From: a virus
Virus record (IMG/VR): IMGVR_UViG_3300020171_000003
Span: 16,533-80,532 of that record
DNA length: 64,000 nucleotides
Direction: 5' to 3' (one strand)
The position numbers and the translations under genes are program-made. Each line of letters begins with the position of its first letter. The stretch's first letter is position 1. The notes beneath the pieces were generated by a model. The model was given only the letters and a program-made list of their open reading frames with translations. It was not told the DNA's origin and searched no databases. Shown piece after piece: positions 1,159-30,575 of the stretch.

Positions 1159-2152
1159 CTGGTCTTTCTCCTTTTTTCAAACATAAAATGTTTTCAGAAT
1201 TGTTTTCAAACCAATATGAAATTAATCTACGATATGTACCATCTATTTCTATAACTTTTCCGGACACCTCCACTTCTCTGTCATAGTTTAACATTTGAGG
1301 AAAGTTTCCTGCAAAAAACAAATTTAAATCCATTTGTTTTCCTGCTTCAAGATAAAAAAGCATATTAATGAAATCTCGCTGACTACCATCATTACATACT
1401 CCTGGTTCTATTATTTCTTCTTTACCGTTATTCATTACAGAAGAACCAACTTTAAATCCTAAACTTTCAATGTATTCTTTAAAATATCTTTTTTCTATTT
1501 TTGAGGAAGTTTGATAGTGTTTATTTTGTTCATTTCTTCTTGGACTTCTTTCTGACATTGTTACTATCCAAGGGATCTCATTAAACACATATTTATTTTT
1601 TCGTGTTTTCGGAATAATAATGAGGCCGTATCTTGAGAACTGGACCCAAGAACTTGAATCAACAGAGTACCAAGGATATCTATTCATAAGAGGTAAAGAA
1701 GTCATGGCAAAACCGTGAGTATTCTTTTTGCCAATCATACTGAAAACTTTGTCACCGAAAGATATGTAATCTTTTTTTGACATATCTTGACCGAGTCCTC
1801 CTATACCGATATATTCATAATTATCAATATAGTGTTTCAAGTATTTAAAATCTTCTTTAGGGTGAAAGACAGGTAAAGGGTTTAAATGATGTTTTTCTTC
1901 CAAATACTTCTGAACTTTTAAGGTTCCTTCTGCATTAAAGATTACGTCAATATTAACATATAATTCTAACAAGTCAACATTTTTCTTTACATATTCCGCA
2001 TAGTTATCAACGTAGGTCCAAAACTCTTCGGAGTCATAAAAGGAAAAATCAAGTGTAGAAACATCTTTCCTTTCTTTTTGTTTGTTAATAACATGTTCGG
2101 TGTAAAGGGAATGCGCTCCTGAATCAAGAAATACTTTTATATTTGGATTCAT
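1022..2152 (-). CDS. dpdA: DpdA-like DNA-guanine transglycosylase (TGT fold)
   Basis: FLDSGAHS, NIDVI, PLPVFH, YIGIGGL, HGFAMT, PWYSVDSSSW motifs; beside folE/queD/queE; start taken at ATG 2152 (MNPNIK), not the ORF-track start. Confidence 0.8.
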   Translation of the reverse strand: MNPNIKVFLDSGAHSLYTEHVINKQKERKDVSTLDFSFYDSEEFWTYVDNYAEYVKKNVDLLELYVNIDVIFNAEGTLKVQKYLEEKHHLNPLPVFHPKEDFKYLKHYIDNYEYIGIGGLGQDMSKKDYISFGDKVFSMIGKKNTHGFAMTSLPLMNRYPWYSVDSSSWVQFSRYGLIIIPKTRKNKYVFNEIPWIVTMSERSPRRNEQNKHYQTSSKIEKRYFKEYIESLGFKVGSSVMNNGKEEIIEPGVCNDGSQRDFINMLFYLEAGKQMDLNLFFAGNFPQMLNYDREVEVSGKVIEIDGTYRRLISYWFENNSENILCLKKGERPDAKITKRNSVNTVPKESPRISFEEGFARLSRKRGHRANDSFHFHR

Positions 2153-2153
2153 T

Positions 2154-3245
2154 TTATTTCTTTTTATAAAGTGGGTTCTCTGTTTTTCCTGTAAACATGA
2201 TATCCAAGCATCTTTCAAAAGATTGATCAAAAGATGTATAAAGATAATCCCACTTTCTTGGGATTTCATCAATATGCCGCATTATCATTTTTGCTGCCGA
2301 TCTTACATCTTTTTTAACATAAAGAAATTCTTGGGGTAAACATTCCGGAAACGATCTGAAATAAGGATAAACAGGACGACAATCACAAGTAAGTGCTTCA
2401 AGTAAGGTCCAAGAAACCCAATCCTGATCTGCACAATTGAATTGAATTTTAGATTCCAATAAATTGAAATAGTATTCTTCTTTGGTTAAATTTGTTTTGA
2501 CTTCAATATAATCTTTTAAATAAGAAGGTATAGAAGGCTCTTTACTGCTTGAAGTTGTGACAAGAAACTTTGGCGGATCCTGATACATTTGATTCATATA
2601 AGATACCACATTGAGAAAAAACTTAGGATCTTTTTCAGTATCCCATCTACTTGTAAAGATAACTTGTCTTTTCTTTTTCGGCAATACTTCTGGAAAGTGT
2701 GTTTTCACTTCTAAAGATTGATAAGGAAGACCTGTTAGATAAACTTTTGGTCCTATATTATTCATTTTACAAAGGTCTTGAAGTTCAGTACTTGTTACAA
2801 ATATTCCGTTAAATATTTTACCATACCCTACTTCTAAAGGACGCATCCAACTTCTCATGCTGTAAGTGAAATCAAAAATATCAACGGATTGAGCATGAAG
2901 CATGGAAAAATATTTTAAATTTAAATCGGTTAGTTCATCTGCATATTTAATCGCTTCAATTCCTGGAGTCCAGAAATCATCGAAATAAAGAATATCGCCA
3001 CGCCTTACTATACCGTTATGCATTGCTTCAAGAAAATAAGCTACTTGGGTTAAAGACCAGATACCTCTGCCGTGTGCATCAAGAACAGAACCTTGTTTAA
3101 TTTCATCAGTAAAACGCTTACCCTCTACTCTTGTATAAGCAATATCTCTTTTTTTAAGAACAGATTCAATCCAACCATCATCTTTTCTTGATAGTTGCAT
3201 AGTGTATCTTTCTTTATACGGTTCTAACGGAAAGTACCAGAGCAT
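2154..3245 (-). CDS. GT-B (GT4-like) glycosyltransferase within the DNA-modification cluster
   Basis: VIFTSRWDTEKDP and QDWVSWTLLEA...PVYPYFRSFPE motifs; abuts dpdA. Confidence 0.75.
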   Translation of the reverse strand: MLWYFPLEPYKERYTMQLSRKDDGWIESVLKKRDIAYTRVEGKRFTDEIKQGSVLDAHGRGIWSLTQVAYFLEAMHNGIVRRGDILYFDDFWTPGIEAIKYADELTDLNLKYFSMLHAQSVDIFDFTYSMRSWMRPLEVGYGKIFNGIFVTSTELQDLCKMNNIGPKVYLTGLPYQSLEVKTHFPEVLPKKKRQVIFTSRWDTEKDPKFFLNVVSYMNQMYQDPPKFLVTTSSSKEPSIPSYLKDYIEVKTNLTKEEYYFNLLESKIQFNCADQDWVSWTLLEALTCDCRPVYPYFRSFPECLPQEFLYVKKDVRSAAKMIMRHIDEIPRKWDYLYTSFDQSFERCLDIMFTGKTENPLYKKK

Positions 3246-3256
3246 AACTTTTCTCC

Positions 3257-3751
3257 TTATAAGATTGTTTTATCTTGTTTATATAACGGATCATCCAAGC
3301 GGGTAACTTTACCTTTTAGGTGATGAACACTCCACCATTTCAATCTGTCTTTAAATACCAATTTAAAATCTGTGATATACAAAGTTTGGGATTTAGATTT
3401 ATAAGTATAAGGTAAAGCAAGAACTACCCGCATGAATGTCCTATCAAAAAACTTTTCAGGAATAAAATCTAATTGTTTGGGATATTCTATTTCAATTACA
3501 ATTTCATATTCATGGTCTTTCAAAAAAGAAAAAATTTCCTCAGCATTGTAAGGAGGCCCTGGATTATTATCAGCCCCAAAATAAATTCTTCTAATATCCC
3601 GGTTATCTTCTAATGCTTTAATTATCTCCAAAAGTTTTATATATCTATCACCAACAAAAAGAGTTTTTGTCTTTCTTTTTGGACCTTCTACTTCTATTCC
3701 TGTGAAAAGTCGTCTCTTAATCATAAAACACCTCAGCTCCGTTCTCACCAT
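3257..3751 (-). CDS. Hypothetical protein of the deazaguanine cluster
   Basis: FTGIEVEG...TLFV and IYFGA motifs; tightly packed in the operon; true start may be slightly downstream. Confidence 0.6.
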   Translation of the reverse strand: MVRTELRCFMIKRRLFTGIEVEGPKRKTKTLFVGDRYIKLLEIIKALEDNRDIRRIYFGADNNPGPPYNAEEIFSFLKDHEYEIVIEIEYPKQLDFIPEKFFDRTFMRVVLALPYTYKSKSQTLYITDFKLVFKDRLKWWSVHHLKGKVTRLDDPLYKQDKTIL

Positions 3752-4064
3752 CCTCCATTACACAAACGTAAACAACATGATATCCAATGCCTTCTTTCAT
3801 ATCTGCATAAAGTTCATTACATAAATGCTCACAAGATAAGCCGGAATAATTTCTATTCACATAACTTTCTCCGATAATACTATCCAGATCATTTTTAGCT
3901 GTTATAAATTCCACATCTCTATTTTCATGCTCTACTCTGATTTTCATTGTTACATGAAACTCATGTCGGTGAATGCTTCTAAGATAATGTACTTCTTGAG
4001 GAGCATCAGGCCAATTATGAAATGCAGGGAATCTTGTGTTAATAATTACGTTTGTTGGATTCAT
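3717..4064 (-). CDS. dpdL: QueD-paralogous T-fold protein, DpdL-like (candidate CDG decarboxylase)
   Basis: LRSIHRHEF fits the LxxxHRHxF signature recalled for DpdL; RDVEF, SCE and EDGENGA motifs; a canonical QueD is present separately. Confidence 0.6.
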   Translation of the reverse strand: MNPTNVIINTRFPAFHNWPDAPQEVHYLRSIHRHEFHVTMKIRVEHENRDVEFITAKNDLDSIIGESYVNRNYSGLSCEHLCNELYADMKEGIGYHVVYVCVMEDGENGAEVFYD

Positions 4065-4067
4065 TGT

Positions 4068-4667
4068 TTACTCCTTATGAAGCAAAGAAATTTTAATAAG
4101 TTCATAACCTTTCATTTCTAAATGGCTATGTTGTTTGAAAATACCACGTACAGCAGAAGTGCTAAATCCGTTTCCACTTTGTTTTATTCCTCGAGACTGC
4201 ATACAATCATGATGACCACGAATAACAATCATTACACCCTTAGGTTTAACATGAGTCACAAAGTTTTCTATGATCTGATGGCAAAGTCTTTCTTGTGTTT
4301 GCGGTCTTCTTGAATAATGATCAATCAATCGGGCGAATTTAGAAGCCCCGATAATCTCTTTGCTTGGAATATACATCATCCAAGCAAGAAATTTAAAAGG
4401 AAGTAAATGATGAGAACACATGGAAACGAGTTCAATTTTATCAGAACAAATAATTTCATCATAACCTTCTATATTCGGTTGTAAGGAGTATTCTTCTTTG
4501 GTAAATTCAGAATTGATATTTTTGAAAAACTCCCGAGAGTACATTTTTGCCACACGCTCGGGAGTTTCCCTTAAATGAGTATCGTTCAAGTCTAAACCTA
4601 ACTCGTAAAGAAGTTCTCCTATGTGATGAGCCACGCTGAGTTCATTCTCTGTTAGATCCGGAGTCAT
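4068..4667 (-). CDS. folE: GTP cyclohydrolase I
   Basis: ETPERVAKMY, SMCSHHLLPF, GASKFAR, RPQTQERL, HDCMQSRG. Confidence 0.95.
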   Translation of the reverse strand: MTPDLTENELSVAHHIGELLYELGLDLNDTHLRETPERVAKMYSREFFKNINSEFTKEEYSLQPNIEGYDEIICSDKIELVSMCSHHLLPFKFLAWMMYIPSKEIIGASKFARLIDHYSRRPQTQERLCHQIIENFVTHVKPKGVMIVIRGHHDCMQSRGIKQSGNGFSTSAVRGIFKQHSHLEMKGYELIKISLLHKE

Positions 4668-4678
4668 TAAACTTATCC

Positions 4679-5311
4679 TTATTTTACGAGCTTATATACA
4701 CCATCTTTAGAAGGAATACTGAAACCTTTAGTAATCAAATGTTTAATGTGGCTATGAACTCTTGAAGGTGTAGTATCCAATTTTGCTGCCGCATCTTTCA
4801 GAGTAAGACCAGTAACTACCATAAGGTCAATATCGTATGCTTGAGAACCTTTTCTTGAACCCAACGGAGACAATTCATACTCTTTTTTGGGCTTATCTAC
4901 TTTCTCTTTTACTACTTTCTCTTTCTTGGGCTTAGGTTCTTTTGCAGGTCCTTTTGGGCGTCCTTTTCCTTTTTTACCTTCAGGAGGAACATCCGTCACT
5001 TCTTCCTTTTCAACTTCATCCTTGGAATCGTCTGTCGGGTTTCCATAATCGTTTTCGTCAAGTCCGTCCTCATTTTCTTCTTCTTCTACTTCATTCTTAA
5101 TCAAACCGTCATTGTAAAAAGCAATGATAGCTTCATCAAGAACAATACCATCTTCATCCAACTTTTCTACAGTTGCAATAAACCATTCACAGATAGCATC
5201 TTTCTTTGTTCCGATCAGTTTAATTTGTTCGGTTACTTCTTCCATTTCGTTCAACATTGTGCATACTTTTTTCAACTCTTTAAAATCGGTTTTATCGTAC
5301 ATTTTTAACAC
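4679..5311 (-). CDS. Acidic/Lys-rich protein with C-terminal winged-HTH-like domain
   Basis: C-terminal GSQAYDID...TLKDAAAKLDTTPSRVHSHIKHL; similar to the product of 24754-25290. Confidence 0.6.
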   Translation of the reverse strand: MLKMYDKTDFKELKKVCTMLNEMEEVTEQIKLIGTKKDAICEWFIATVEKLDEDGIVLDEAIIAFYNDGLIKNEVEEEENEDGLDENDYGNPTDDSKDEVEKEEVTDVPPEGKKGKGRPKGPAKEPKPKKEKVVKEKVDKPKKEYELSPLGSRKGSQAYDIDLMVVTGLTLKDAAAKLDTTPSRVHSHIKHLITKGFSIPSKDGVYKLVK

Positions 5312-5319
5312 CTTTCCGG

Positions 5320-5979
5320 CTATTTACAGCCAATTAGTTTGTGAATCTGATAATTAAATTTGACATGAAATAATGAATCTTTTTCCATTTTATTATATAA
5401 CATGGATGCCTGCATTACATTTTTTTCTATATCTTCGGACAAACACGGACTGAATACATGATTGAATTGTTTATACACTATAGCTTTTTCTTTGGCAAAT
5501 TGGTAATCTCCTTCATTTAAAATTACATGTTTGATTAAATCTTTCTCCCTTAGACAATTTAAATTTTTATAATTAAAAACATCTTCACTTATTGCGCTCG
5601 GACCTTTCCAATCAACAATGAAACAATCTACATTAGGAATTAAATTCTCAACACAATGTGTACCGTTAGTTTCTACTGAAATAAAATAACCTGAATCTTT
5701 TAGTAATCTACATAGTAAAGACAAATCGCCTTCTTGTTCAAATGGTTCACCTCCTGTGATTAAAATATTTTGACAATGTAACTGCTGGACTGCTTTATGA
5801 ATTTCTTTAGAAGAACACTCTGAACCCAATTCTCCATCTTGAGCTTGCTTGGTGTCACAATAAGAGCATCCACCTATACCTAAAGTGCATCCTTGCATTC
5901 GGATAAAAGTAGCCCAACTTCCTTGACCAAATAAGTTCCACTCACCATTAATGCTTCTGAAAATTTCATTGATTTTCAT
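5320..5979 (-). CDS. queE: 7-carboxy-7-deazaguanine synthase (radical SAM)
   Basis: INEIFRSINGE, FIRMQGC, CSYCDT, ITGGEP, VETNGT, terminal QIHK. Confidence 0.92.
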   Translation of the reverse strand: MKINEIFRSINGEWNLFGQGSWATFIRMQGCTLGIGGCSYCDTKQAQDGELGSECSSKEIHKAVQQLHCQNILITGGEPFEQEGDLSLLCRLLKDSGYFISVETNGTHCVENLIPNVDCFIVDWKGPSAISEDVFNYKNLNCLREKDLIKHVILNEGDYQFAKEKAIVYKQFNHVFSPCLSEDIEKNVMQASMLYNKMEKDSLFHVKFNYQIHKLIGCK

Positions 5980-6313
5980 AACCGTTCTCCCTTAAGAAAT
6001 CAAAAACCTCTTTTTTTGGAACAGTACAGTTTGCCCAACTGTTAATTGTTCCCCCGCAAATACACATATCACCTGTTTTTATATTATTTTTTAAAAGATC
6101 AGAAATGTAATAACTTTCATATCCAGTAGGTCCGCCTTCAAATTTTAATATATCCTTATTCTTTTCTTTTGCTTTTATAATAATCATTTCCAATTCTCTA
6201 TTTGATATGAGCAAAAATTTTCTGTTAATATATTTATTTGTGGCCTTGTCCCAATTACCTGTTTCTTGTGTCCATTTACTTTTGATTTTCATGCTGTTAG
6301 CTCCGCATAACAT
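5966..6313 (-). CDS. Hypothetical protein
   Basis: ORF packed between queD and queE. Confidence 0.5.
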   Translation of the reverse strand: MLCGANSMKIKSKWTQETGNWDKATNKYINRKFLLISNRELEMIIIKAKEKNKDILKFEGGPTGYESYYISDLLKNNIKTGDMCICGGTINSWANCTVPKKEVFDFLRENGYENQ

Positions 6314-6672
6314 TTATCGGTTTCATATAATCTTACTTTTTCTAAAACAATGTGTTTCGGAAATTTATTTAAAAGAAGATAATAAATCCATCTACACATA
6401 TTTTCGGCTGTAGGGTTATCAAAAAGATCATTTAAATGGGTGTGGTCTAATTTATTAATTATCCAGGTATTAACTACTTCTGACATTCTTTGAAAATCAA
6501 GAATCATTCCAAACTCAGGATCATTCACATCTTGAACAGTATTCTCCTTATCTGAAACAGTTATTTCTAACCGAAAATTATGGCCATGCGGATTTTTACA
6601 CCTTCCCTGATGATTCGGTAAAAAATGTGAAGCCGCAAAGTCAAAGCTTTTACAAACAGTCATTGTTGGCAT
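6289..6672 (-). CDS. queD: 6-carboxytetrahydropterin synthase
   Basis: FAASHFL, CKNPHGHNF, GMILDF, LDHTHLND, NPTAEN, LYET. Confidence 0.95.
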   Translation of the reverse strand: MPTMTVCKSFDFAASHFLPNHQGRCKNPHGHNFRLEITVSDKENTVQDVNDPEFGMILDFQRMSEVVNTWIINKLDHTHLNDLFDNPTAENMCRWIYYLLLNKFPKHIVLEKVRLYETDKCYAELTA

Positions 6673-7401: not shown

Positions 7402-8958
7402 TTAATCTTTTTTTACTATTTTTATGAGGGAATCTAAATGTGTTTGTCCAACGTGAATATTCTGGAGAATAGTGACTTGCTTGTTTTCATCAAAGTACTT
7501 ATGTCGATGGGCGATCAAACCAACTCGCATCCGGCCTGCTTTCTTTTCTTCATTACTTTGGTTCAATCCAAATAGCACATCGACATGACCAAGCTTACCA
7601 ATCCATCTTGCTGAATGCTTTGATTTAATGCTTTCAGCTTCTAAGCCTTCTCTTGTTACTTGAGTAGGAGTAATAACGGTCATTTTTTTATCTTGACCTA
7701 AAGAAGACAAAGCCATCCAAGATTGATCTTCTTTTTCTACACCAACAAGATTGTCTCGTTCTGCTTTTAAAATATCTACATAATCAATAATGAGAATATC
7801 CGGAATAAAGTTTTCATACTTTTCAAGTTGGGATAGCGATTGATATATATCCTTCACATTTGCAGTAAATTTAGGAAAAGACATGAACCGTATTCTATTA
7901 CCGTATATTTTATTAATTTGCTCTATTTTCTTAGCTACCGTAGGGTAAAGAAAATCATCCCATTCTTTTTCTATGAACCAAGAATCAAGTTCAAATTCAT
8001 TTTTATATTCTGGATGATCTTTACAAAAAGTACAAGGCTCATACGTTGAGGAACCAAAATTGAATTTCTCAACATCTGGTTTAATACTATCGACCAATAA
8101 AGAAACTCTACTGAATCTACCCGGCTTTATACAAGATCCTATTTGGTTCTTAGCACAATCCCACACAGGCATCAAATTCATTTCTTTTTTTATTTTTAAA
8201 ACAGGATCAATAGAAGGAGAAAGTCTTTTTATTAAACGTCCGGTCATTTCTGTAGGAGACATTTCAAGCGATATGAAAGCAACACGTTTGCCGGATAGTA
8301 ATCCTATTACACCCAAATCTAACGCAAAGAATGTTTTGCCTCTTTTAAATGGAGCAGATATACCAACTAACCAACCTCTTTTAATATTCCCAAGAAACTC
8401 ACCAAGATCACCAGGCATTAATAAAAATTCGTCTTTATCTTCTTCAAACACTTTGAAAACTTCATCATCAGACAAAGGGTTTATCCATCTGTTCGTTAAT
8501 TTTACAATAGGTTTGATATTCAAGAATACTGCTTCTGCTTCTTTAACTCGGTCTTGCTCTAATAAATAGCTGATTTCTTTCATGCGCTGTTCCATCTCCT
8601 GCTTTGTGAAATATTCAATAGCAGTATCAATGGCTGAAGGAGCGTTAATTGCTTTACCAGAAGCTTCATATAATTCATTTAGTTCTAATAGGATTGTTTC
8701 AATTGCTTCCACATCTTCTGATTTTAATTGGGTACTTTTTTTAATAAACACATTGTTCATATCATTTTCAGGAACTTCTCCATAAAGTTCATAATATGAT
8801 TTAACCCATTTAGCAATTGTTTTCAAGTGAGGGTTTAAAAAATAATTTATATTGAAACTTTCGTATATACCAGTGAAAAATTCTTTTGATACAATCATGC
8901 TTAGGATTATCCGCTTCTCTATAACAACATCTATCTTTTTCCGTTGAATAAGGGCCAT
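7402..8958 (-). CDS. dnaB: DnaB-like replicative helicase
   Basis: Walker A APFKRGKT, FISLEMS, IIDYVD, TPTQVTR; Cys-rich insertion. Confidence 0.85.
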   Translation of the reverse strand: MALIQRKKIDVVIEKRIILSMIVSKEFFTGIYESFNINYFLNPHLKTIAKWVKSYYELYGEVPENDMNNVFIKKSTQLKSEDVEAIETILLELNELYEASGKAINAPSAIDTAIEYFTKQEMEQRMKEISYLLEQDRVKEAEAVFLNIKPIVKLTNRWINPLSDDEVFKVFEEDKDEFLLMPGDLGEFLGNIKRGWLVGISAPFKRGKTFFALDLGVIGLLSGKRVAFISLEMSPTEMTGRLIKRLSPSIDPVLKIKKEMNLMPVWDCAKNQIGSCIKPGRFSRVSLLVDSIKPDVEKFNFGSSTYEPCTFCKDHPEYKNEFELDSWFIEKEWDDFLYPTVAKKIEQINKIYGNRIRFMSFPKFTANVKDIYQSLSQLEKYENFIPDILIIDYVDILKAERDNLVGVEKEDQSWMALSSLGQDKKMTVITPTQVTREGLEAESIKSKHSARWIGKLGHVDVLFGLNQSNEEKKAGRMRVGLIAHRHKYFDENKQVTILQNIHVGQTHLDSLIKIVKKD

Positions 8959-24121: not shown

Positions 24122-24331
24122 ACCAAGCAATAAACAGAGAAAAGAACAAGGAATTAAATAATAACCAAAATTAATTCCTTTTCTTTTTCATATTTTAAAC
24201 CATTTATTAGAATTCCATAACCTGGTTAAGAAAATTAATATAGGAATATTACAAAAACACCGGAGGTATTTCACTTTCCCATATGACCAAAACTACTTCC
24301 TGATCCTCATTATCGAATAGTATTTAAACAT

Positions 24332-24602
24332 TGAATAAGCTTCAGTTAATGAATACCATTCAGAAAATGAATAAGCCTCAGAAAATGAATAAGCCTCAGA
24401 AAATGAATACCATTCAGAAAATGAATAATCCTCGAAAATATTCAGAAAATAAATACCGTTCATTTAATTATCACCATTCAGAAAATGAATTGCCTTTAGT
24501 AAACACCATTTATTCATTAAATATCATAAATATAATAAATGAACTTCATTCATTAAATAAGCCAAAGATAATGAATGACATTCAACTAATGAATATCATT
24601 CA
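24332..24602. repeat. 18-bp-period repeats and TGAAT-N3-ATTCA palindromes
   Basis: CAGAAAATGAATAAGCCT-type units; perfect palindromes at 24350, 24404, 24572, 24590. Confidence 0.85.
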
Positions 24603-24611
24603 TTTTTACTT

Positions 24612-24686
24612 CTACATGCAAAAAACTATAATCATTTCCAGATATAAAATAGAAGTGATTAAAACAGCATAAAAAAACATTTTCAT
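24612..24686 (-). CDS. 24-aa hydrophobic peptide (not in ORF track)
   Basis: MKMFFYAVLITSILYLEMIIVFCM; same AGAAAGTGAGA leader as the upstream gene. Confidence 0.45.
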   Translation of the reverse strand: MKMFFYAVLITSILYLEMIIVFCM

Positions 24687-24707
24687 AGTATCTCACTTTC
24701 TGTTTGA

Positions 24708-25356
24708 AGTTTATTTTTAAATAGTCTCTTGCTTGATAATTAATAAAAACAATTTACTTACTTTCATTCACTTTCAATGCTGTAAAATAATCATTGAATT
24801 TCTTTTCATGTTCTGTTCTCAGAACAACAAACACTTTTTTATTTTCTTTCAAGACTCGCATTTTGTGTGACTGTTTGCTTTTGAGATAAGACAAATGTGA
24901 ATTGACACGACTTTCTTTTGTAGCAGCTTTTTCTGCTATTTCTTTTATTGTCAAACGACTGAAAAGCAAGCAATCATTGATAACATGTGCATTGCTCGTC
25001 AAGCTGTTATCAAAAAAATCAATCTCACGACTTGACGTTTTTGACGCTTTTTCTTTTACTTTTTCAGCTTGCTTAATATCGAAAAAATACTTACATGCTG
25101 TTTTCATTTCAATGTTATCGCACGTTGAACATTGACTATCTTTTTCATCAAAAAAAGAAAATGCTTTACAATAATTTATAGCATTTTCAAACGTAAAATC
25201 TTGAACGTCTGTTACTTTTTCAACGTCTTTTTCAACTTCAATATTCTTATCTTTATTCTTATCTTTTTTTGCTATATTTTTTGGATTCATAATAGTCTCA
25301 CTTTCTATGCTGTTAAGCACGTTTAAATGAAGCAAGAGACTATTTAAAAATAAACT
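24708..25356. repeat. Perfect 27-bp inverted repeats (24708-24734 and 25330-25356) flanking one gene
   Basis: AGTTTATTTTTAAATAGTCTCTTGCTT and its exact reverse complement. Confidence 0.92.
24754..25290 (-). CDS. Zn-binding/winged-HTH protein with no Gly or Trp
   Basis: Start MNPKNIAKK at ATG 25290; C..CSTC..C; LTIKEIAEKAATKESRVNSHLSYL. Confidence 0.75.
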   Translation of the reverse strand: MNPKNIAKKDKNKDKNIEVEKDVEKVTDVQDFTFENAINYCKAFSFFDEKDSQCSTCDNIEMKTACKYFFDIKQAEKVKEKASKTSSREIDFFDNSLTSNAHVINDCLLFSRLTIKEIAEKAATKESRVNSHLSYLKSKQSHKMRVLKENKKVFVVLRTEHEKKFNDYFTALKVNESK

Positions 25357-26175
25357 GATATGTCAAAGAACAAATTTTCTAACAAGAGTCAAAAGCAGCT
25401 AATTTCTGTTTTGTTGCTTTTTTCATCATGTTAGTAATCTAAAAGATCATATAAATAACTTGATTACAGAACTATCATACTTTTATCAACAGAGTCAAGA
25501 CTTTTTTTTAATTAATATCACTTTTTTTTTAATTAATATCATTTTTCTGCATTCACTCAATGAATACAAGCTTAATCAATCAAATAACACTAAAAAAATG
25601 TAATAAAATCAATAACAACTTATTCAGATGAACGACATGACACGATAATCACATAGTCAATACTAACACAAGCATAATTTCTATGCCCGAAATAACTATC
25701 TATAATCATAGTACTATTAATCATACGTTTATCAATCATTCTCATATATCGTCAATTCTCGTTCATTAAAATATAATTAATAATAATAAACTAAATAAAA
25801 CAAATTAATAAACTATTAATCAATCATTGAATATAATTCATTCTATTACTCATTCATTATTACTTAACTCATTCTATATTGCTTCATGCATTGTCTAACA
25901 CTCTGTTCATTTATTAATTGAATGATATTCATTATTGCTTTCTACATAGATTAATACTTTCTATATTATCTGAATGTCATTCATTTGTTCGTGCGGTTTA
26001 CGGGCGGTAGGATAAGAGAAGGTGAGTTGGTAGTGGAGCGCGGATAGTAATATGATATGACTATCATGTATCATGACTATCATGCATCATCTGATTGACT
26101 CATTCAATCAGTTGTCTCAGGTTGTTATACGAGACGGTATTGTCTCAATATGATACAGTTTTTTTTATCTAATAA

Positions 26176-26188
26176 TATCAATAGGTTA
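26176..26188 (+). promoter_or_regulatory. IHF consensus site
   Basis: TATCAA-TAGG-TTA matches WATCAANNNNTTR. Confidence 0.5.
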
Positions 26189-26195
26189 TGAAAGT

Positions 26196-26223
26196 AGTTT
26201 ACATAATACTCGTTATCAGACGT
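26196..26223 (-). other. dif-like XerCD recombination site
   Basis: Minus strand ACGTCTGATAA-CGAGTA-TTATGTAAACT, 11-6-11 architecture with a XerD-type arm. Confidence 0.65.
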
Positions 26224-26620
26224 ACAAAAAAACAGTCAAAACCCCCCTGGTTTCATCTCAAAAAGTTCGGAAAATAGTGATTTGGGGACCACGCCGAAAT
26301 ATTTATACCAGATGCAAAAGTGAAGCATAGCCGTGACGAATAGCAGCAGACCATTATCATTTTAAAACGAATCCTGTTAAACCATTAATTAAAAATAACG
26401 AATATAGAAAAACAGGGATTTAATAAAAGGAAACCTGAAAAAATGCAATCCGGATGAGTAAAAGTGAAGCATAGACCATCCAAACATGAAAAACCATGAA
26501 AACAATTCAAAAACACAAAGTTTCCTATGCTCTGAGTCTTTTTTACATGCCAACCGAAACTATTTCTTGACATTTATAGATGAATATCATAGAATAATAG
26601 ATATGAAAGGAGTACAAAAG

Positions 26621-27226
26621 ATGGCAATAAAAGCAATGCAAAGCGTAACCAGAGTACCAACCACATACGATTCACTCATATCCGGATTAGCCGTGAATGA
26701 AGAAAAGCAATCCGTAGTCCGTCCGTTATACACTTGGGATTACGTCCAAGAATGCACGGAACGCTGTCCGGCTTATGAAGGAACCACATGTCATTTCAAT
26801 AAGGATGTCCGGACGAATAAGCGGTGTAAGGTGATGGACATGTATTTGAAAGGTGTAGCGGATACGGTGATGTTAGCATACCCGAAGGATGAGATAATTG
26901 ACCCAAGAACATTGTGGAGAGTCGGAATGCATCTCATGCCGTTGTACCAGATGTTAGGACGGATGAAGATAGAGGAGGCCACGTTTCATACTGTTATATT
27001 TACGGATGATAAAGGCCGAAGGAAAGCCAACCCAATATATAAGGAGATACGGGAGACATTGAAACAGATTGAAAGTGCTTGGAGGGACTTGAATCTCGGA
27101 GGAAGTTTGGGGGAAGGTTATCTGGACTTCGGAGATAAGAGTCCGTCGGGCAGAGGTGCTAATTTAACTGATCCGGATGATTATTATACCCGGATGCAGA
27201 AAGGCGGGAGGCAGGTGAAGACATGA
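26621..27226 (+). CDS. terS: Probable terminase small subunit
   Basis: KANPIYKEIRETLKQIESAWRDLNL (P27-like NP motif); first gene of the late arm; AGGAG RBS before ATG 26621. Confidence 0.6.
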   Translation: MAIKAMQSVTRVPTTYDSLISGLAVNEEKQSVVRPLYTWDYVQECTERCPAYEGTTCHFNKDVRTNKRCKVMDMYLKGVADTVMLAYPKDEIIDPRTLWRVGMHLMPLYQMLGRMKIEEATFHTVIFTDDKGRRKANPIYKEIRETLKQIESAWRDLNLGGSLGEGYLDFGDKSPSGRGANLTDPDDYYTRMQKGGRQVKT

Positions 27227-27741
27227 GAAATCCTTGTTTGAAGTGTAAACGGCATTTGAAGGGTTTGGATAAGAATGGACCGGAGTGTACGGAGTGTTTG
27301 CTTCGGCTTCAATATGCCCATAGTATTGAAGTGAAGGATGAGGATGAGACCCTTCAAGTACGGAATTGGAGAAAGTGTAAGGTGTGCGGTACGGAAAAGA
27401 TATTGGAAGAGGAATATAATCGGAAGGGTAGAAAGAAAGGTGAGTATGTTGACACCTGTAAGGAGTGTATGGGTGAATCAATTATGCGGGCACGGGAAGA
27501 AAAAGCCGTAGCGAAGGTTACTATTATGATTAAGGATAAAGGACTGCATACATGGTTGAAAGAAAGAGCGGGTAAGGAATTCCGAACAGTAGAGAACCAG
27601 ATATTGTTCTTTCTTACTATGGTGAAGGACTTAGAGAATACGACCGTGATTGAAAAGAAAACTTTGTTTGAAGACGGACGGAAGCCCCAGCCTGTGTATA
27701 GAAGTTTTGACGAGATTGGTAAAATAGATAAGGAGGAGTAG
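27223..27741 (+). CDS. Zn-finger protein with Arc-like C-terminal segment
   Basis: Four CxxC pairs; LHTWLKERAGKEFRTVENQILFFL. Confidence 0.55.
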   Translation: MRNPCLKCKRHLKGLDKNGPECTECLLRLQYAHSIEVKDEDETLQVRNWRKCKVCGTEKILEEEYNRKGRKKGEYVDTCKECMGESIMRAREEKAVAKVTIMIKDKGLHTWLKERAGKEFRTVENQILFFLTMVKDLENTTVIEKKTLFEDGRKPQPVYRSFDEIGKIDKEE

Positions 27742-27745
27742 AAAA

Positions 27746-28693
27746 ATGATTAGAGGACAAAAATATTTAGTGACTACGGAAGAATATTTTGTAACCCCAA
27801 ACGGGAAACAATATAAAGCTGCTTTTGGTGAATATAAAGGTAAGGCGGCTTTCGGTGTTGATTTTACTTACATCGGAAATATTGCTTTAAAAACGGATAA
27901 AATTTATTCTGCGGTAAAGACGGATGAAGTTGATTTTGGAAATAAGCAAGATGAATGGAGTGAAAAAGGAGAAATGCGAGATACTTGGATTTATAATGCA
28001 GAATAATTAGTTTCCTCCGACTTGTAAAAGGGTAATGGTAAAAAGCCCAGGTGATAGTTCGGGAGTGCTAAAGCACAAGTCGGAGGATTTTTTAAAGGAA
28101 TATAAATGATTAAACTGTGCCCAAAATGTAGAGGAACACTCATATTAGAAGATCGTGTCCTTTTTTGCATAGATTGTTTGTATGTAGTTGATCGCTTTTT
28201 AAAAAGGGAAAAGCTTGACGATGATATCCGTTCGCTAAGGAGTAAAGGATTATCGTGGGCCTCAATAGGAAAACGAGTAAACAGAACAGCAATGGCAGTT
28301 AGACGACGGTTCATCATTGCTTTTGGTAAAGATCATGAGTTAATGCAGGATATTCAGAAAGTGAAGGATCAGAAAGAAACAACATTGCTTTCTTATCTAA
28401 TGAAAGAAGATGGGTTATCCTATTCTTTTATTTCAAAGGAACTTGGCATAAGTATAAATGCTTGTAAGCAGAAGGTCAGGAGAGAAAGGATGAAATTATA
28501 AATTATGGATTGGAAAACAAAAGAAACAGCAAAGGCAATTATAACGTCACTTAATGTAGGTGATAAATTAAAAGACCTCACAAATAAGCATTTAGCAGAC
28601 CTTCTTTTAAAACACATTTGGTCGAAATATGATGTTTTCAGCCATGAAAGTGATTTGTTAGAGGAAGTTATTGAAAGATTAAGGAAAGGATGA
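27746..28693 (+). CDS. Three small genes (27746-28006; 28106-28501 Zn-ribbon + double HTH; 28505-28693)
   Basis: CPKC/CIDC and GLSWASIGK/GLSYSFISKELGIS helices in the middle gene. Confidence 0.55.
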
Positions 28694-28697
28694 AAGA

Positions 28698-30575
28698 ATG
28701 TCGGTAAACGGTTTACGGAAGGCTGTTAAAGAAGTAGAAGAAATTACATATAGATCAGGCGGAGAGGGAATGATTGCTTGGTGTGATGATAAGGTTAGGT
28801 TACCTATTTACCCGACTGAATCAGAAATAGCAATTTGGTGGCCGTTAGGTGATTTACCCCAAGAGAAGAATCCTAAGACAGGAAGGAGTTATCAAGACCT
28901 CTGGGACTTTCATAAGATGGTTCTTAAAGAAGCTTTGCAGATGGATGATCATCATAGATTTCTTTATAGACTTATTGTTTTTTGTTGGATGCGTGGTGAA
29001 GGTAAATCAATTCTTGCGGTTCTTATTCAATTATGGAAATTCTTTAACTGGCCAAGACAATTAATAACTCTTGGTGCAAATAGTAAGGATCAGATCAAGT
29101 TTGTCCATTTTGAATGGATGAGAGATATTATTTTAAACTCACCAGAACTTTTAAACGATATTGGTGGGAAAATGAATATTAAGGAGAAATATATTCAGAT
29201 GAAAGATAGTAGAGGACGTATCCAGTCAACAATTCGTCCTATCTCAACTGCTACAGGTATTGTGTCAAACATTACTGGGTACACTTTCTCTGAAATCTTT
29301 GCTATGAAGAAACCAGACTTCTTCACCCAGTTAGATGGTTCCATTCGTAATATTCCAAATGCTTTAGGTGTTATTGATTCTACTGTTTCCTCAAAAAAGC
29401 ATGTTCTCTATCAGTTATATAGTAATGTTCTTTTAGGTAAAACAAAGAATGTTTATTTTTCTTATCGGTGTTCCCCTGCTGGTAATTATGAAGATTTTTC
29501 TCATCCACATATGGATCAAGATCAGTTAGATGATTATGAAATCAAGTTTCCTTTTGGTGAGTTTGATAAATACTTTAAGAATACTTGGTCAGCAGGTTCT
29601 CATAAAGTTTTTTCCCATACGATGGTTGAAGAAATGAGTATTATTTCAGCAAAAGGTTCTTTTTATGATCATGCTCAAATTAAAGAGTTATTGGATAAGA
29701 AAGAACATTTGATTGATATGCGGACGAGTGTTGAGCAGAAAACATTTAGTAATGAAAGAAGTTTAGAAGGCATTGCGAAACGATTAGGAGATATAATTGA
29801 TTGTTTTGAACCAGTTGATACTTTATACACCCTTTCAGATGGACAAGGAAGACCTAAAGCAGCTACTTTAGATGATTTAATGTTTTTAGGAGAAAGATTT
29901 GATACTGATTGGGTTATTCTTGCAGGAACAGACTTTGGAGATCCTTACTCAACTGCGAGTAATGCAAGAACCATTGGAGTAGTCCTTGCAAAAGGTTTAC
30001 CTGGTTCTAAATCTGATCCTTCTCTTTATTTGAGAACACCTACAGCACCTCAATATATTTATTTTTTATTAGTCCTTTCTGTTTCTTCTGAGCATTCTAT
30101 TAATACTATAAAGGAAAGTATGGAATATGCTCACAATGAGTTCTTAGGAATTGATTCTTTATGTAGTGAGCATTACGGAGCTTGGGATATAGGACAATGG
30201 TCTGAAGATAGAGAAATACCGTTTACTCCTATTCATCCTAATTATGAAAAACAAAAAGATTGTTTTAAAGCTTTGCTTGAATGCGGGAAAGAAGGACGAA
30301 TTAAATTTCCATCTAAGATAGGTATTCCTGGTTCTAAATCAAACAATATATTAATAGAAGAACTTGAAGAATTTGATCATGATGTAGATTTAAAATGGTT
30401 CGGAAGTACAGAAAAGAGTGAAAGATATGGTATTCAGGATGATGTTGTTTATGCAATAGGGTGGGGTTTATATGGCGGAAGAATGCTCGGGGTTGATGAT
30501 TTTAGAATACGAGTTCGTAAAAGAAGTTTCGGTGAAATGTCAGTTCCTTCAGGGTTGTTAGGTAGATATACCTAG
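28698..30575 (+). CDS. terL: Terminase large subunit
   Basis: RGEGKS Walker A, GANSKDQ, nuclease GTDFG and QDDVVYA; precedes portal. Confidence 0.88.
   Translation: MSVNGLRKAVKEVEEITYRSGGEGMIAWCDDKVRLPIYPTESEIAIWWPLGDLPQEKNPKTGRSYQDLWDFHKMVLKEALQMDDHHRFLYRLIVFCWMRGEGKSILAVLIQLWKFFNWPRQLITLGANSKDQIKFVHFEWMRDIILNSPELLNDIGGKMNIKEKYIQMKDSRGRIQSTIRPISTATGIVSNITGYTFSEIFAMKKPDFFTQLDGSIRNIPNALGVIDSTVSSKKHVLYQLYSNVLLGKTKNVYFSYRCSPAGNYEDFSHPHMDQDQLDDYEIKFPFGEFDKYFKNTWSAGSHKVFSHTMVEEMSIISAKGSFYDHAQIKELLDKKEHLIDMRTSVEQKTFSNERSLEGIAKRLGDIIDCFEPVDTLYTLSDGQGRPKAATLDDLMFLGERFDTDWVILAGTDFGDPYSTASNARTIGVVLAKGLPGSKSDPSLYLRTPTAPQYIYFLLVLSVSSEHSINTIKESMEYAHNEFLGIDSLCSEHYGAWDIGQWSEDREIPFTPIHPNYEKQKDCFKALLECGKEGRIKFPSKIGIPGSKSNNILIEELEEFDHDVDLKWFGSTEKSERYGIQDDVVYAIGWGLYGGRMLGVDDFRIRVRKRSFGEMSVPSGLLGRYT

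What the first reader, a model, noticed from the sequence alone, without database searches (positions are those of the whole stretch)
24640..25994. A 1.35-kb island almost free of GG/CC in a phage with guanine-replacement machinery
Seen: line-by-line reading finds one GG (25283) and one CCC (25686) in 1355 bp, where base composition predicts several tens, while CG and GC remain common. The depletion is staggered: plus-strand GG is missing from ~24270 to 25994 and CC from 24640 to 26241 (one exception each). It spans coding and non-coding DNA, and the ribosome-binding sites read AGAAAGTGAG rather than AGGAG. Inference: DpdA modifies G in GG context, and this stretch is selected to stay unmodified so that host RNA polymerase, or packaging or replication proteins, can read it. 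It lies just upstream of terS, where genome ends often map, so it may be the first DNA to enter the cell.
Basis: partly seen in the sequence, partly recalled or inferred. Interest (0 to 1): 0.9.

Follow-up and report, generated by a model that had tools for sequence, protein, structure and literature searches.

The report
GG/CC-free control island in deazaguanine phage
An uncultured groundwater phage that swaps some of its guanines for a modified base keeps one 1.36-kb control cassette, protein and ribosome-binding site included, almost free of the DNA steps GG and CC; relatives do the same with their own banned words, so this stretch is most likely the one part of the genome kept out of reach of the phage's own DNA modification.

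Summary
Window 24638-25995 holds 1 GG and one CCC where about 49 GG/CC are expected (P about 1e-17). The largest GG/CC-free gap elsewhere in the 80.5-kb genome is 88 bp.

It is a selected trait, not chance. Eight further phages carry equally sharp islands beside their packaging genes. Their banned words differ by lineage: all GG/CC; GG/CC plus GAT and GAG; or only GGA/GGT.

The island holds one complete gene unit: a promoter-like site, a GG-free Shine-Dalgarno surrogate, and a winged-helix gene with no Gly or Trp and one Pro. Binding-site arrays flank it. A normally composed paralogue of this gene sits inside the phage's QueC-less 7-deazaguanine operon.

Clean islands occur only in phages with DpdA or Que genes, or in fragments of unknown status. 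Two complete DpdA-less relatives have none. Two pairs of sister DpdAs share their banned words.

Best reading (about 0.55): the cassette is purged of the target words of the phage's own guanine modification and so stays canonical DNA. The motif, the modification and the reason are all unmeasured. Nothing here supports the idea that this DNA enters the cell first.

This scan has already noted the same phenomenon in other genomes. I found no published description.

The parts
24638..25995 (.). Core island: 1358 bp with 1 GG and one CCC; sharply bounded, with 13 GG in the 500-bp window that starts at 25751
24300..24640 (.). Left array of about 8 iteron-like repeats with an 18-bp period (TCAGAAAATGAATA..), containing TGAAT-N3-ATTCA palindromes. 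It is GG-free but not CC-free. The 107-aa ORF over it is a repeat artefact
24612..24686 (-). Candidate 24-aa hydrophobic ORF, preceded by a second copy of the GG-free Shine-Dalgarno surrogate (CAGAAAGTGAGATACT-ATG)
   Evidence: read from the sequence; not tested
24708..24737 (.). Left arm of a 30-nt inverted repeat (97% complementary) enclosing the island gene
24754..25290 (-). Island gene: 178-aa protein with a C-terminal winged helix-turn-helix and a Lys-rich N-terminus. 0 Gly, 1 Pro, 0 Trp. No hit in the word-seeded search of 5.8 billion proteins; homology is detectable only by local tblastn and by alignment with the island genes of relatives
25296..25306 (-). GG-free Shine-Dalgarno surrogate AGAAAGTGAGA (AAAGGAGA with a T between the two G). 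The same device is seen in L066 (GAGAAAGTGAAAG) and L034 (GAAAGYGAGAACGAA)
25327..25356 (.). Right arm of the 30-nt inverted repeat
25339..25366 (-). Sigma-70-like promoter match (TTGACA, 16 nt, AATAGT) pointing into the island gene; its -10 hexamer lies inside the right repeat arm
   Evidence: consensus match only
25502..25986 (.). AT-rich non-coding right half: a 21-nt tandem repeat (25502-25543) and TGAAT-N3-ATTCA palindromes (25828, 25916, 25971) that mirror the left array
4679..5302 (-). p207, a normally composed paralogue of the island protein (14 Gly, 11 Pro, 1 Trp), lying between folE and queE in the deazaguanine operon. It has the same wHTH, with SRVxSH[LI] in the recognition helix
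1022..2269 (-). DpdA-like DNA guanine transglycosylase (phrog_887). Its closest cultured relatives are the DpdA of 9g, CAjan and BRET, at about 35% identity
2154..6672 (-). Rest of the QueC-less 7-deazaguanine cluster: GT-B-like p363 (2154-3245), a 164-aa unknown (3257-3751), DpdL-like p115b with LRSIHRHEF (3717-4064), FolE (4068-4667), QueE (5320-5979), a 115-aa unknown (5966-6313) and QueD with CKNPHGH (6289-6672)
26486..30575 (+). Start of the packaging module: a conserved 246-aa protein that sits next to terL in relatives (small-terminase candidate), an HNH-like protein, an HTH/sigma-r4 protein (28106-28501) and TerL (28698-30575)

Best explanation
The island is a selection-maintained zone from which the recognition words of the phage's own guanine-modification machinery have been removed. 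That machinery is a DpdA-type insertion of a 7-deazaguanine base made by a QueC-less FolE-QueD-QueE-DpdL pathway, possibly tailored by a GT-B-like enzyme. Here the banned word is GG on either strand. As a result, one self-contained control cassette stays ordinary, unmodified DNA in every virion.

The cassette comprises a promoter-like site, a GG-free Shine-Dalgarno surrogate, a winged-helix DNA-binding gene, and arrays of palindromic binding sites on both sides.

Shown:
- the purge and its sharp bounds;
- its override of protein sequence and of the ribosome-binding site;
- its conservation, with lineage-specific banned words, in relatives and in a second phage family;
- its restriction to phages with DpdA or Que genes;
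- the paralogue inside the deazaguanine operon.

Inferred:
- that the island is unmodified in virions;
- the purpose. My preferred purpose (about 0.3 of the total) is a 'boot' copy. The incoming chromosome is fully modified, so a DNA-binding regulator and its operators are kept on unmodifiable DNA, where host RNA polymerase and the regulator can read them at once. The normally composed paralogue in the operon would serve once replication supplies unmodified template.
- An equally allowed purpose is a protein-binding platform (packaging recognition, origin, or a loading site) that must bind the same whether or not the DNA is modified.
For: 1. The purge is extreme and unique in the genome.

2. 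It is conserved under sequence divergence. Among 80 loci of TerL relatives, many carry an island 1-5 kb upstream of terL. Examples are L035 (2 GG/CC against 139 expected in 1668 bp at 41% G+C), L066 (2 against 84), L010 (a 1186-bp gap) and L034 (2.3 kb).

3. G+C is largely kept and moved into GC, CG, CA and TG steps: GC observed/expected is 1.71 inside against 0.89 outside. This points to selection rather than mutational decay.

4. The banned words differ by lineage and are all short and G-led. G000, G004, G009 and G010 ban all GG/CC. G005 and G034 ban GG/CC plus GAT and GAG. G002, G026 and G027 ban only GGA and GGT, with GGC and GGG normal or enriched. Measured DpdA motifs are GA (iggy, PMC10484667) and GA plus GGC (CAjan, PMC7544227).

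5. On the DpdA tree, G005+G034 and G026+G027 are sister pairs, and each pair shares one banned set. G026 and G027 have a different terminase from the window's family.

6. Within the TerL family every member with DpdA or Que genes shows depletion: G000, G002, G005, G034 and G009 cleanly, G006 partly. The two complete DpdA-less genomes, G001 and G003, show none.

7. In a 40-genome survey, 700-bp windows with zero GGW occur only in nine genomes, and every other genome has a minimum ratio of 0.25 or more. Islands occur in 6 of 19 QueC-less genomes and 0 of 14 QueC-positive DpdA genomes (Fisher P about 0.025, not corrected for relatedness).

8. The island protein's wHTH is paralogous to p207 inside the deazaguanine operon (E = 3.6e-5; alignment A4). 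Conserved glycines of the family are replaced in the island copies.

9. G007 carries an N6/N4 DNA methyltransferase at the site where relatives have dpdA. It has a syntenic island with yet another banned set: GGT, GGC and GGG, but not GGA. This fits a rule that the island avoids whatever the phage's own modification enzyme reads.
Against: No modification data exist. The motif of this DpdA and the chemical nature of the base are unknown.

The trait is absent from half of the near-complete QueC-less, GT-B-positive genomes (G015, G016, G017, G018, G022, G037). It is also absent from CAjan, whose motif is known, so DpdA alone does not demand an island.

The closest biochemical analogue of the pathway (Cellulophaga phage phiST, DpdL) replaces all guanines (PMC10516641), which would leave no role for a GG motif. 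However, this DpdA is nearer by BLAST to the 9g and CAjan DpdAs, phages in which only part of the guanines are replaced.

A binding site needs only itself to be motif-free. Why 1-2 kb, coding DNA included, must be clean is not explained by any known effect of 7-deazaguanines on transcription or replication.

G007 shows that an island can exist without DpdA. G008 carries the same methyltransferase and is ambiguous.

The association counts are small and phylogenetically non-independent.
Confidence: 0.55

Rival explanations
1. Avoidance of a host-encoded reader. The island is an exposed or first-acting segment, such as a leading end. It must escape host restriction enzymes, a CRISPR PAM (NGG or CC types) or another defence that reads GG, independently of the phage's own modification.
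For: The islands sit beside packaging genes, where ends often lie. The ban is on both strands, as for a DNA-level reader. The banned words vary between phages, as host systems would. T7 and T5 show that leading segments can be specially organised (own knowledge).
Against: Two complete DpdA-less relatives with the same architecture have no island. Sister DpdAs share banned sets in genomes of 44% and 55% G+C. The island gene has a paralogue in the deazaguanine operon. Protecting 1.4 kb out of 80 kb from a nuclease or from Cas interference would not save the genome. No restriction enzyme has a 2-nt site. No end was mapped here.
Confidence: 0.13
2. A shielded zone rather than a sensitive zone. The island is covered by protein (terminase, the wHTH arrays) or is processed when DpdA acts, so it cannot be modified. 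Every word that elsewhere depends on modification for protection has therefore been purged, leaving nothing unprotected.
For: The same comparative evidence as for the main reading. In addition, dense arrays of repeated binding sites bracket the islands in G000, L010, L066, L034, G026 and G027.
Against: Protection from restriction would need only the specific 4-6-bp sites to be removed, not every GG. GG-free 4-bp palindromes such as GCGC, GATC and TGCA remain in the islands. Nothing shows that DpdA is excluded from the island.
Confidence: 0.12
3. RNA-level selection. Transcripts of the cassette must lack GG and CC (or GGW) to escape a sequence-specific endoribonuclease. T4 RegB, which cuts GGAG, is the model; a toxin RNase is another candidate. 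Alternatively the transcripts must stay unstructured.
For: The Shine-Dalgarno is rewritten without GG. The island is about the size of one gene unit in G000, G002, G026 and G027.
Against: Both strands are purged equally, including long non-coding flanks and repeat arrays. An RNase explains neither the link to DpdA nor the paralogue in the operon. No RNA data are available.
Confidence: 0.05
4. Local hypermutation. A context-specific cytosine deaminase acting on a segment that is often single-stranded erased CC on both strands.
For: The islands have lower G+C than their genomes (26% against 33% here).
Against: TC/CT steps are not enriched. G and C are kept and moved into GC, CG, CA and TG steps. 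L035 keeps 41% G+C with 2 GG/CC against 139 expected. The gene stays open, and the wHTH family is conserved. Banned sets such as GAT and GAG are not deaminase products.
Confidence: 0.03

Closest known systems
Motif-specific 7-deazaguanine insertion by phage DpdA (CAjan: GA and GGC, PMC7544227; iggy: GA, PMC10484667; 9g)
   Same: This phage has a DpdA homologue (about 35% identity to the 9g and CAjan DpdA) next to a polymerase and clamp, as in Queuovirinae. It also has the FolE, QueD and QueE genes. The banned words are 2-3 nt and G-led, like the measured DpdA motifs.
   Different: No motif-free island has been reported for those phages, and I found none in CAjan. This cluster lacks QueC and has DpdL-like and GT-B-like genes. 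The motif and the base here are unmeasured.
Cellulophaga phage phiST pathway (FolE, QueD, QueE, DpdL giving 7-deazaguanine; PMC10516641)
   Same: QueC-less gene set, with a QueD paralogue carrying the DpdL signature LxxxHRHxF (LRSIHRHEF here).
   Different: phiST uses DpdA3 and replaces all guanines. The DpdA here is closest by BLAST to the 9g and CAjan DpdAs, and the island implies a motif-limited reaction. A GT-B-like gene is added.
Restriction-site (palindrome) avoidance in phage genomes
   Same: Selection removes short words that an enzyme reads on DNA.
   Different: That avoidance is genome-wide, concerns 4-6-bp sites and is statistical. Here a 2-3-nt word is almost absolutely banned, but only within 1-2 kb with sharp edges, at the cost of three amino acids and the Shine-Dalgarno.
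Leading-end or first-step-transfer regions of T7 and T5 (own knowledge)
   Same: A small, specially organised segment next to a genome end that acts first after infection would be a functional analogue of the 'boot' reading.
   Different: No end is mapped here. Those regions are not defined by a banned dinucleotide. They encode anti-restriction or host shut-off proteins, not a single wHTH gene flanked by site arrays.
Iteron replicons such as the P1 incC-repA-incA or F incB-repE-incC arrangement (own knowledge)
   Same: A small winged-helix gene flanked on both sides by arrays of short repeats (18-bp period on the left).
   Different: There is no Rep-family match. The protein has one wHTH in 178 aa. 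The phage has its own DnaD-like initiator beside DnaB elsewhere. Word-banning is not a feature of replicons.

Membership tests
Phage DpdA / 7-deazaguanine DNA modification system | DpdA (TGT-fold DNA transglycosylase) encoded in the genome | tested here: met
   phrog_887 at E = 1.4e-38. The LDSGA and DS.SW motifs are conserved in alignment A2. About 35% identity to the 9g and CAjan DpdA. Pfam PF01702 itself did not match.
Phage DpdA / 7-deazaguanine DNA modification system | Precursor pathway FolE, QueD, QueE (and QueC for preQ0) | tested here: met
   FolE matches PF01227 at 1.8e-51. QueE and QueD match by PHROG. QueC is absent by tblastn with the CAjan QueC. A DpdL-like protein with LRSIHRHEF is present, so this is a QueC-less variant.
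Phage DpdA / 7-deazaguanine DNA modification system | Modified base present in virion DNA at a defined motif | not testable with these tools
   Only Logan contigs of groundwater metagenomes are held; there are no signal-level or mass-spectrometry data.
Leading-end / first-step-transfer region (T7, T5) | Lies at a physical genome end and enters the cell first | tested here: inconclusive
   The record's 127-bp terminal repeat is about 41 kb from the island and may be an assembly artefact. Contigs give no molecule ends.
Leading-end / first-step-transfer region (T7, T5) | Encodes anti-restriction or host take-over proteins | tested here: not met
   The only clear gene is a wHTH DNA-binding protein.
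Iteron-regulated replicon | Rep-family initiator between iteron arrays | tested here: inconclusive
   Arrays flank the gene, but there is no Rep family match in Pfam, PHROGs or NCBIfam. Only a generic wHTH fold is seen.
Invertible DNA segment (Gin/Hin/Cin type) | Inverted repeats flanking the segment | tested here: met
   A 30-nt inverted repeat, 97% complementary, encloses the gene. Similar repeats occur in L066 and L010, and the gene's orientation differs between phages.
Invertible DNA segment (Gin/Hin/Cin type) | Both orientations present in a population | tested here: not met
   No strand-switch joint at the repeat arms in the contigs of the source run X1. Contigs drop rare variants, so this is weak. 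No search for an invertase gene was made.
Restriction-site avoidance | Genome-wide under-representation of specific 4-6-bp palindromes | tested here: not met
   GG/CC is over-represented genome-wide (observed/expected 1.2) and banned only locally. GG-free palindromes persist inside the islands.

The most novel reading that the evidence does not exclude
Phages with motif-limited guanine modification carry a dedicated 'modification-exempt' cassette. It is a winged-helix regulator, written without the enzyme's target words, together with its binding-site arrays.

Two versions are open. In the first, the cassette boots the infection from the fully modified incoming chromosome, and its product licenses reading of the rest. 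In the second, it acts as the cis-acting loading or nucleation site, parS-like, from which the DpdA machinery is directed, with the operon-encoded paralogue p207 as its partner.

If either is true, the banned words of such islands read out the specificity of uncharacterised DNA-modifying enzymes directly from sequence. The wHTH family would then be a new class of modification-linked regulators.
Probability: 0.2. Interest if true: 0.92.

Novelty: categorically new. Interest (0 to 1): 0.86.

Why it matters
If the reading holds, a phage genome marks out in plain sequence the one stretch that must not carry its own base modification. That gives three things.

1. A sequence-only way to predict the target motif of uncharacterised DpdA enzymes, and perhaps of other modification enzymes. 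Here the predictions are GG; GG plus GAK; GGW; and GGB for a methyltransferase-bearing relative.

2. The first sign that 7-deazaguanine-type modification has a functional cost for some DNA transaction, strong enough to recode a protein without Gly, Pro or Trp and to rewrite a Shine-Dalgarno.

3. A new regulatory module, a wHTH gene with site arrays, tied to the modification operon.

It also makes an open question testable: what do hypermodified bases block inside the phage's own life cycle? I found no description of such islands in the DpdA literature I read or in the full-text searches.

Tried and rejected
- **No close annotated relative.** megablast of 10 kb and tblastn of TerL against the phage collection found nothing. 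Single-sequence locus searches with the island protein and with TerL found nothing.
- **Island protein.** It has no relative in the word-seeded search of 5.8 billion proteins. The Atlas feature hit scored 0.76 and was uninformative.
- **RNA features.** Rfam and tRNA scans of the island and its flanks were empty. Promoter-like sites were no more frequent than in shuffles.
- **Sequencing runs.** No RNA holder is listed; all runs are kept as contigs. Low-depth contigs of three other groundwater samples cover the flanks but not the island. This is a hole at 2-4x depth and proves nothing. No inversion joint was seen at the 30-nt repeat arms.
- **Cultured DpdA phages.** CAjan and Sulfitobacter phage M39 show no motif-free island.
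- **Palindrome avoidance.** Comparing 4-mer palindromes with and without GG gave no clear contrast.
- **Population-level test.** L009 and L010 differ at only 7 positions inside the island, too few for a test.
- **Excluded regions.** Regions in G001, G003 and G008 that lack many 3-mers at once (ATA, TAA, GCC, CCC) are biased or repetitive segments elsewhere in those genomes, not the same phenomenon.
- **Rejected readings.** Chance or composition (P about 1e-17, conserved in relatives). Deaminase decay (G+C is kept and redistributed). G-quadruplex avoidance (GGG is allowed in the GGW-type islands). Easy melting (GC and CG steps are enriched).
Full report
**1. The observation**

The window is bases 16533-80532 of an 80,532-bp IMG/VR virus record with a 127-bp direct terminal repeat. 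The record comes from groundwater metagenomes.

In window 24640-25994 there is one GG (25283) and one CCC (25686). Local base composition predicts 12.9 GG and 35.7 CC. CG and GC are at or above expectation. A 500-bp sliding count shows no other window in the 64 kb with four or fewer GG+CC.

In the whole genome GG/CC recurs every 15 bp on average. The three longest gaps (645, 403 and 308 bp) are adjacent, at 24638-25995. The next longest gap is 88 bp. The Poisson tail is 1.6e-17, and homogeneous Markov simulations never approach the observed gap statistic.

**2. Anatomy of the island**

Read from left to right, the island contains:

- an array of about eight iteron-like repeats with an 18-bp period, holding TGAAT-N3-ATTCA palindromes (24300-24640);
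- a possible 24-codon hydrophobic ORF;
- a 30-nt inverted repeat (24708-24737 and 25327-25356) that encloses one minus-strand gene (24754-25290);
- the sequence AGAAAGTGAGA in front of that gene's ATG;
- a sigma-70-like promoter match (25366-25339);
- 640 bp of AT-rich non-coding DNA with a 21-nt tandem repeat and three more TGAAT-N3-ATTCA palindromes that mirror the left array.

The GG-rich boundary at 25995 is abrupt.

88 of 112 genes in the genome carry an AAGGAG-type Shine-Dalgarno, so the island gene's version is that element with a T between the two G. The same device appears in relatives L066 and L034.

The 178-aa product has 0 Gly, 1 Pro and 0 Trp, against 11% for these residues in the proteome. 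It is the most extreme protein in the genome. Its C-terminal half is a winged helix-turn-helix:

- weak hits to HTH_40, to the Sar family and to sigma region 4;
- ArsR/MarR-like structural neighbours of the Atlas model over residues 84-178.

**3. Genomic context**

Upstream, on the minus strand, lie a DNA polymerase and its clamp, followed by a guanine-modification cluster:

- a DpdA-like transglycosylase (phrog_887);
- a 363-aa protein with weak GT-B/GT4 matches in the PDB;
- a 164-aa unknown;
- a QueD paralogue with the DpdL signature LxxxHRHxF;
- FolE;
- a 207-aa protein (p207);
- QueE;
- a 115-aa unknown;
- QueD.

No QueC is present. PMC10516641 gives the DpdL signature and links the pathway to 7-deazaguanine. 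This DpdA is closest, at about 35% identity, to the DpdA of 9g, CAjan and BRET, phages in which only part of the guanines are replaced.

Downstream of the island the packaging and structural module begins. It opens with a conserved 246-aa protein that abuts terL in relatives, followed by TerL at 28698-30575.

**4. Conservation in relatives**

TerL has hundreds of metagenomic relatives at 50-80% identity and no cultured one. A profile search of IMG/VR returned 80 loci. Scanning them showed that many have an island 1-5 kb upstream of terL:

| Locus | GG/CC seen | Expected | Size |
|---|---|---|---|
| L035 | 2 | 139 | 1668 bp at 41% G+C |
| L066 | 2 | 84 | 1149 bp |
| L010 / L009 | none in the gap | - | 1186-bp gap |
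| L034 | 16 | 157 | 2271 bp |

L058, L074 and L079 also carry islands.

The islands are not alignable with each other, so the purge is maintained while the sequence diverges. Pooled over eight islands (11.3 kb), observed/expected for GG/CC is 0.07 inside and 1.17 outside. GC rises from 0.89 to 1.71, and CG and CA/TG also rise. G and C are therefore retained and re-placed. This argues for selection and against deaminase-type decay.

**5. The banned words differ by lineage**

Whole genomes were fetched for 38 viral records, and two cultured phages were added. Gap scans over all 2- and 3-mers, together with window statistics, give four kinds of island.

| Genomes | Banned words |
|---|---|
| G000, G004, G009, G010 | every GG/CC-containing 3-mer |
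| G005, G034 | GG/CC plus GAT/ATC (3 of 40; 5 of 58 expected) plus GAG/CTC |
| G002, G026, G027 | only GGA and GGT (1-4 against 25-31 expected); GGC and GGG normal or enriched |
| G007 | GGT, GGC and GGG (1, 2, 3 against 51, 37, 37); GGA doubled |

G026 and G027 have a different terminase. Their islands also lie near packaging genes and also hold one small gene flanked by repeat arrays.

In the 40-genome survey the minimum GGW ratio in 700-bp windows is bimodal. It is 0.03 or less in nine genomes and 0.25 or more in all others.

**6. Link to the modification genes**

Within the TerL family, every member with DpdA or Que genes shows depletion at the syntenic place. G000, G002, G005 and G034 do so cleanly, as does G009, which carries QueD; G006 does so partly. 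The two complete DpdA-less genomes, G001 and G003, show none.

On a DpdA tree, G005+G034 (support 100/99) and G026+G027 (94/87) are sister pairs, and each pair shares a banned set.

All island bearers of known status lack QueC. Islands occur in 6 of 19 QueC-less and 0 of 14 QueC-positive DpdA genomes (Fisher P about 0.025, uncorrected for relatedness).

The banned words (GG, GGW, GAK) have the same form as the measured DpdA motifs, GA and GGC (PMC7544227, PMC10484667).

G007 has an N6/N4 DNA methyltransferase exactly where its relatives have dpdA, and its island bans a different set. This suggests that the rule concerns the phage's own modification enzyme in general.

A lead from another note of this scan proved correct when tested. 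The island protein's wHTH is paralogous to p207, encoded between folE and queE (tblastn E = 3.6e-5). An alignment was made of the island proteins of G000, L066, L010, L058, G002 and G026 with p207 and its four database relatives. It shows a common Lys-rich linker plus a wHTH with an invariant His and the motif SRVxSH[LI]. Family glycines are replaced in the island copies. p207 has 14 Gly, 11 Pro and 1 Trp.

**7. Interpretation**

It has 2-3-nt specificity, varies with the DpdA lineage, and is tied to the deazaguanine operon. The phage's own guanine-modification enzyme is the simplest candidate, and the island is then the one stretch that stays canonical DNA.

Why that is needed is inferred, not shown. 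The island is about one gene unit plus its control and binding sites. That fits a regulator that must be made from, and act on, the fully modified incoming chromosome: a 'boot' copy, with p207 as the later copy. It fits equally a nucleoprotein platform for packaging, for an origin or for enzyme loading.

The difficulties are as follows.

- Half of the near-complete QueC-less genomes, and CAjan, have no island.
- The phiST-type pathway is known for complete guanine replacement.
- No known effect of 7-deazaguanines explains why whole coding regions must be clean.
- No modification data exist.

**8. Rivals**

- **Host-defence or PAM avoidance** is disfavoured by the DpdA-less relatives, by the sister-DpdA pattern and by the paralogue. 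Protecting 2% of a genome would also be futile.
- **A shielded zone that DpdA cannot reach** shares all the comparative evidence and can be separated only by experiment.
- **RNA-level selection** does not explain the symmetric purge of non-coding arrays.
- **Hypermutation** is contradicted by the composition data.
- **An invertible segment** is suggested by the flanking inverted repeats and by the gene's differing orientation among phages. No inverted form was seen in the source run's contigs, and inversion would not explain the purge.

**9. Novelty**

The DpdA papers I read do not mention motif-free regions, and full-text searches for related terms found nothing.

This scan has already recorded the same phenomenon in several other uncultured phages, with similar readings. 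Those are unchecked AI notes and not independent evidence. Here I re-derived the GGW-only and the GG+GAT+GAG sets independently on G002, G026 and G027, and on G005 and G034.

Noticed in passing
window 1022-6672: QueC-less 7-deazaguanine cluster: a DpdA-like protein, a GT-B-like 363-aa protein (weak GT4 hits in the PDB), a DpdL-like T-fold protein with LRSIHRHEF, FolE, the wHTH protein p207, QueE and QueD. The GT-B-like and DpdL-like genes recur next to dpdA in many unrelated viral contigs that lack QueC. This suggests an uncharacterised, possibly glycosylated, 7-deazaguanine derivative.
   Followed up: partly
G007 (locus L110:13724-14722 and L110:3761-4531; island at G007:30031-32011): A TerL-family relative without dpdA or que genes has two N6/N4 DNA methyltransferases, one at the position where relatives have dpdA. 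It also has a syntenic 2-kb island that bans GGT, GGC and GGG but not GGA. Genome-wide GGS observed/expected is only 0.48.
   Followed up: partly
window 24612-24686 (minus strand): A 24-codon hydrophobic ORF (MKMFFYAVLITSILYLEMIIVFCM), preceded by a second copy of the GG-free Shine-Dalgarno surrogate, just outside the left repeat arm.
   Followed up: no
window 24708-24737 and 25327-25356; L066:5889-5905 and 6433-6449; L010:7563-7614 and 7989-8040: The island gene is enclosed by an inverted repeat in three phages, and its orientation relative to terL differs between phages (minus in G000 and L010, plus in L066 and L079). In L066 the whole island is also bracketed by a 19-nt inverted repeat with GTGTCTCA motifs.
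   Followed up: partly
whole genomes G000, G001, G002, G003: CTAG is strongly avoided genome-wide: 36 seen of 141 expected in G000, 0 of 98 in G002, 28 of 146 in G001 and 24 of 144 in G003. This is independent of the island.
   Followed up: no
window 26486-27226: A 246-aa protein with no family match, whose C-terminal 160 residues are conserved in all TerL-family genomes. In most of them it lies directly upstream of terL, so it is a likely small-terminase candidate. In G000 four small genes (HNH-like, HTH/sigma-r4 and others) are inserted between it and terL.
   Followed up: partly
whole genomes G000, G002, G005, G034 against G001, G003: Outside the islands, GGW is over-represented in the DpdA-positive family members (observed/expected 1.25-1.44) and slightly under-represented in the DpdA-less ones (0.88-0.92).
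   Followed up: no
G001:26-33 kb, G003:86-88 kb, G008:33.5-35 kb: Segments in the DpdA-less relatives that lack many 3-mers at once (ATA, TAA, AAT, GCC, CCC, CGC). They are strongly biased or repetitive DNA, far from terL, and of unknown nature.
   Followed up: no
window 26567-26595: The best sigma-70-type promoter match of the region (TTGACA, 17 nt, TAGAAT; 11 of 12). It lies just inside the called start of the 246-aa gene, so the true start of that gene or of the late operon may lie downstream.
   Followed up: no
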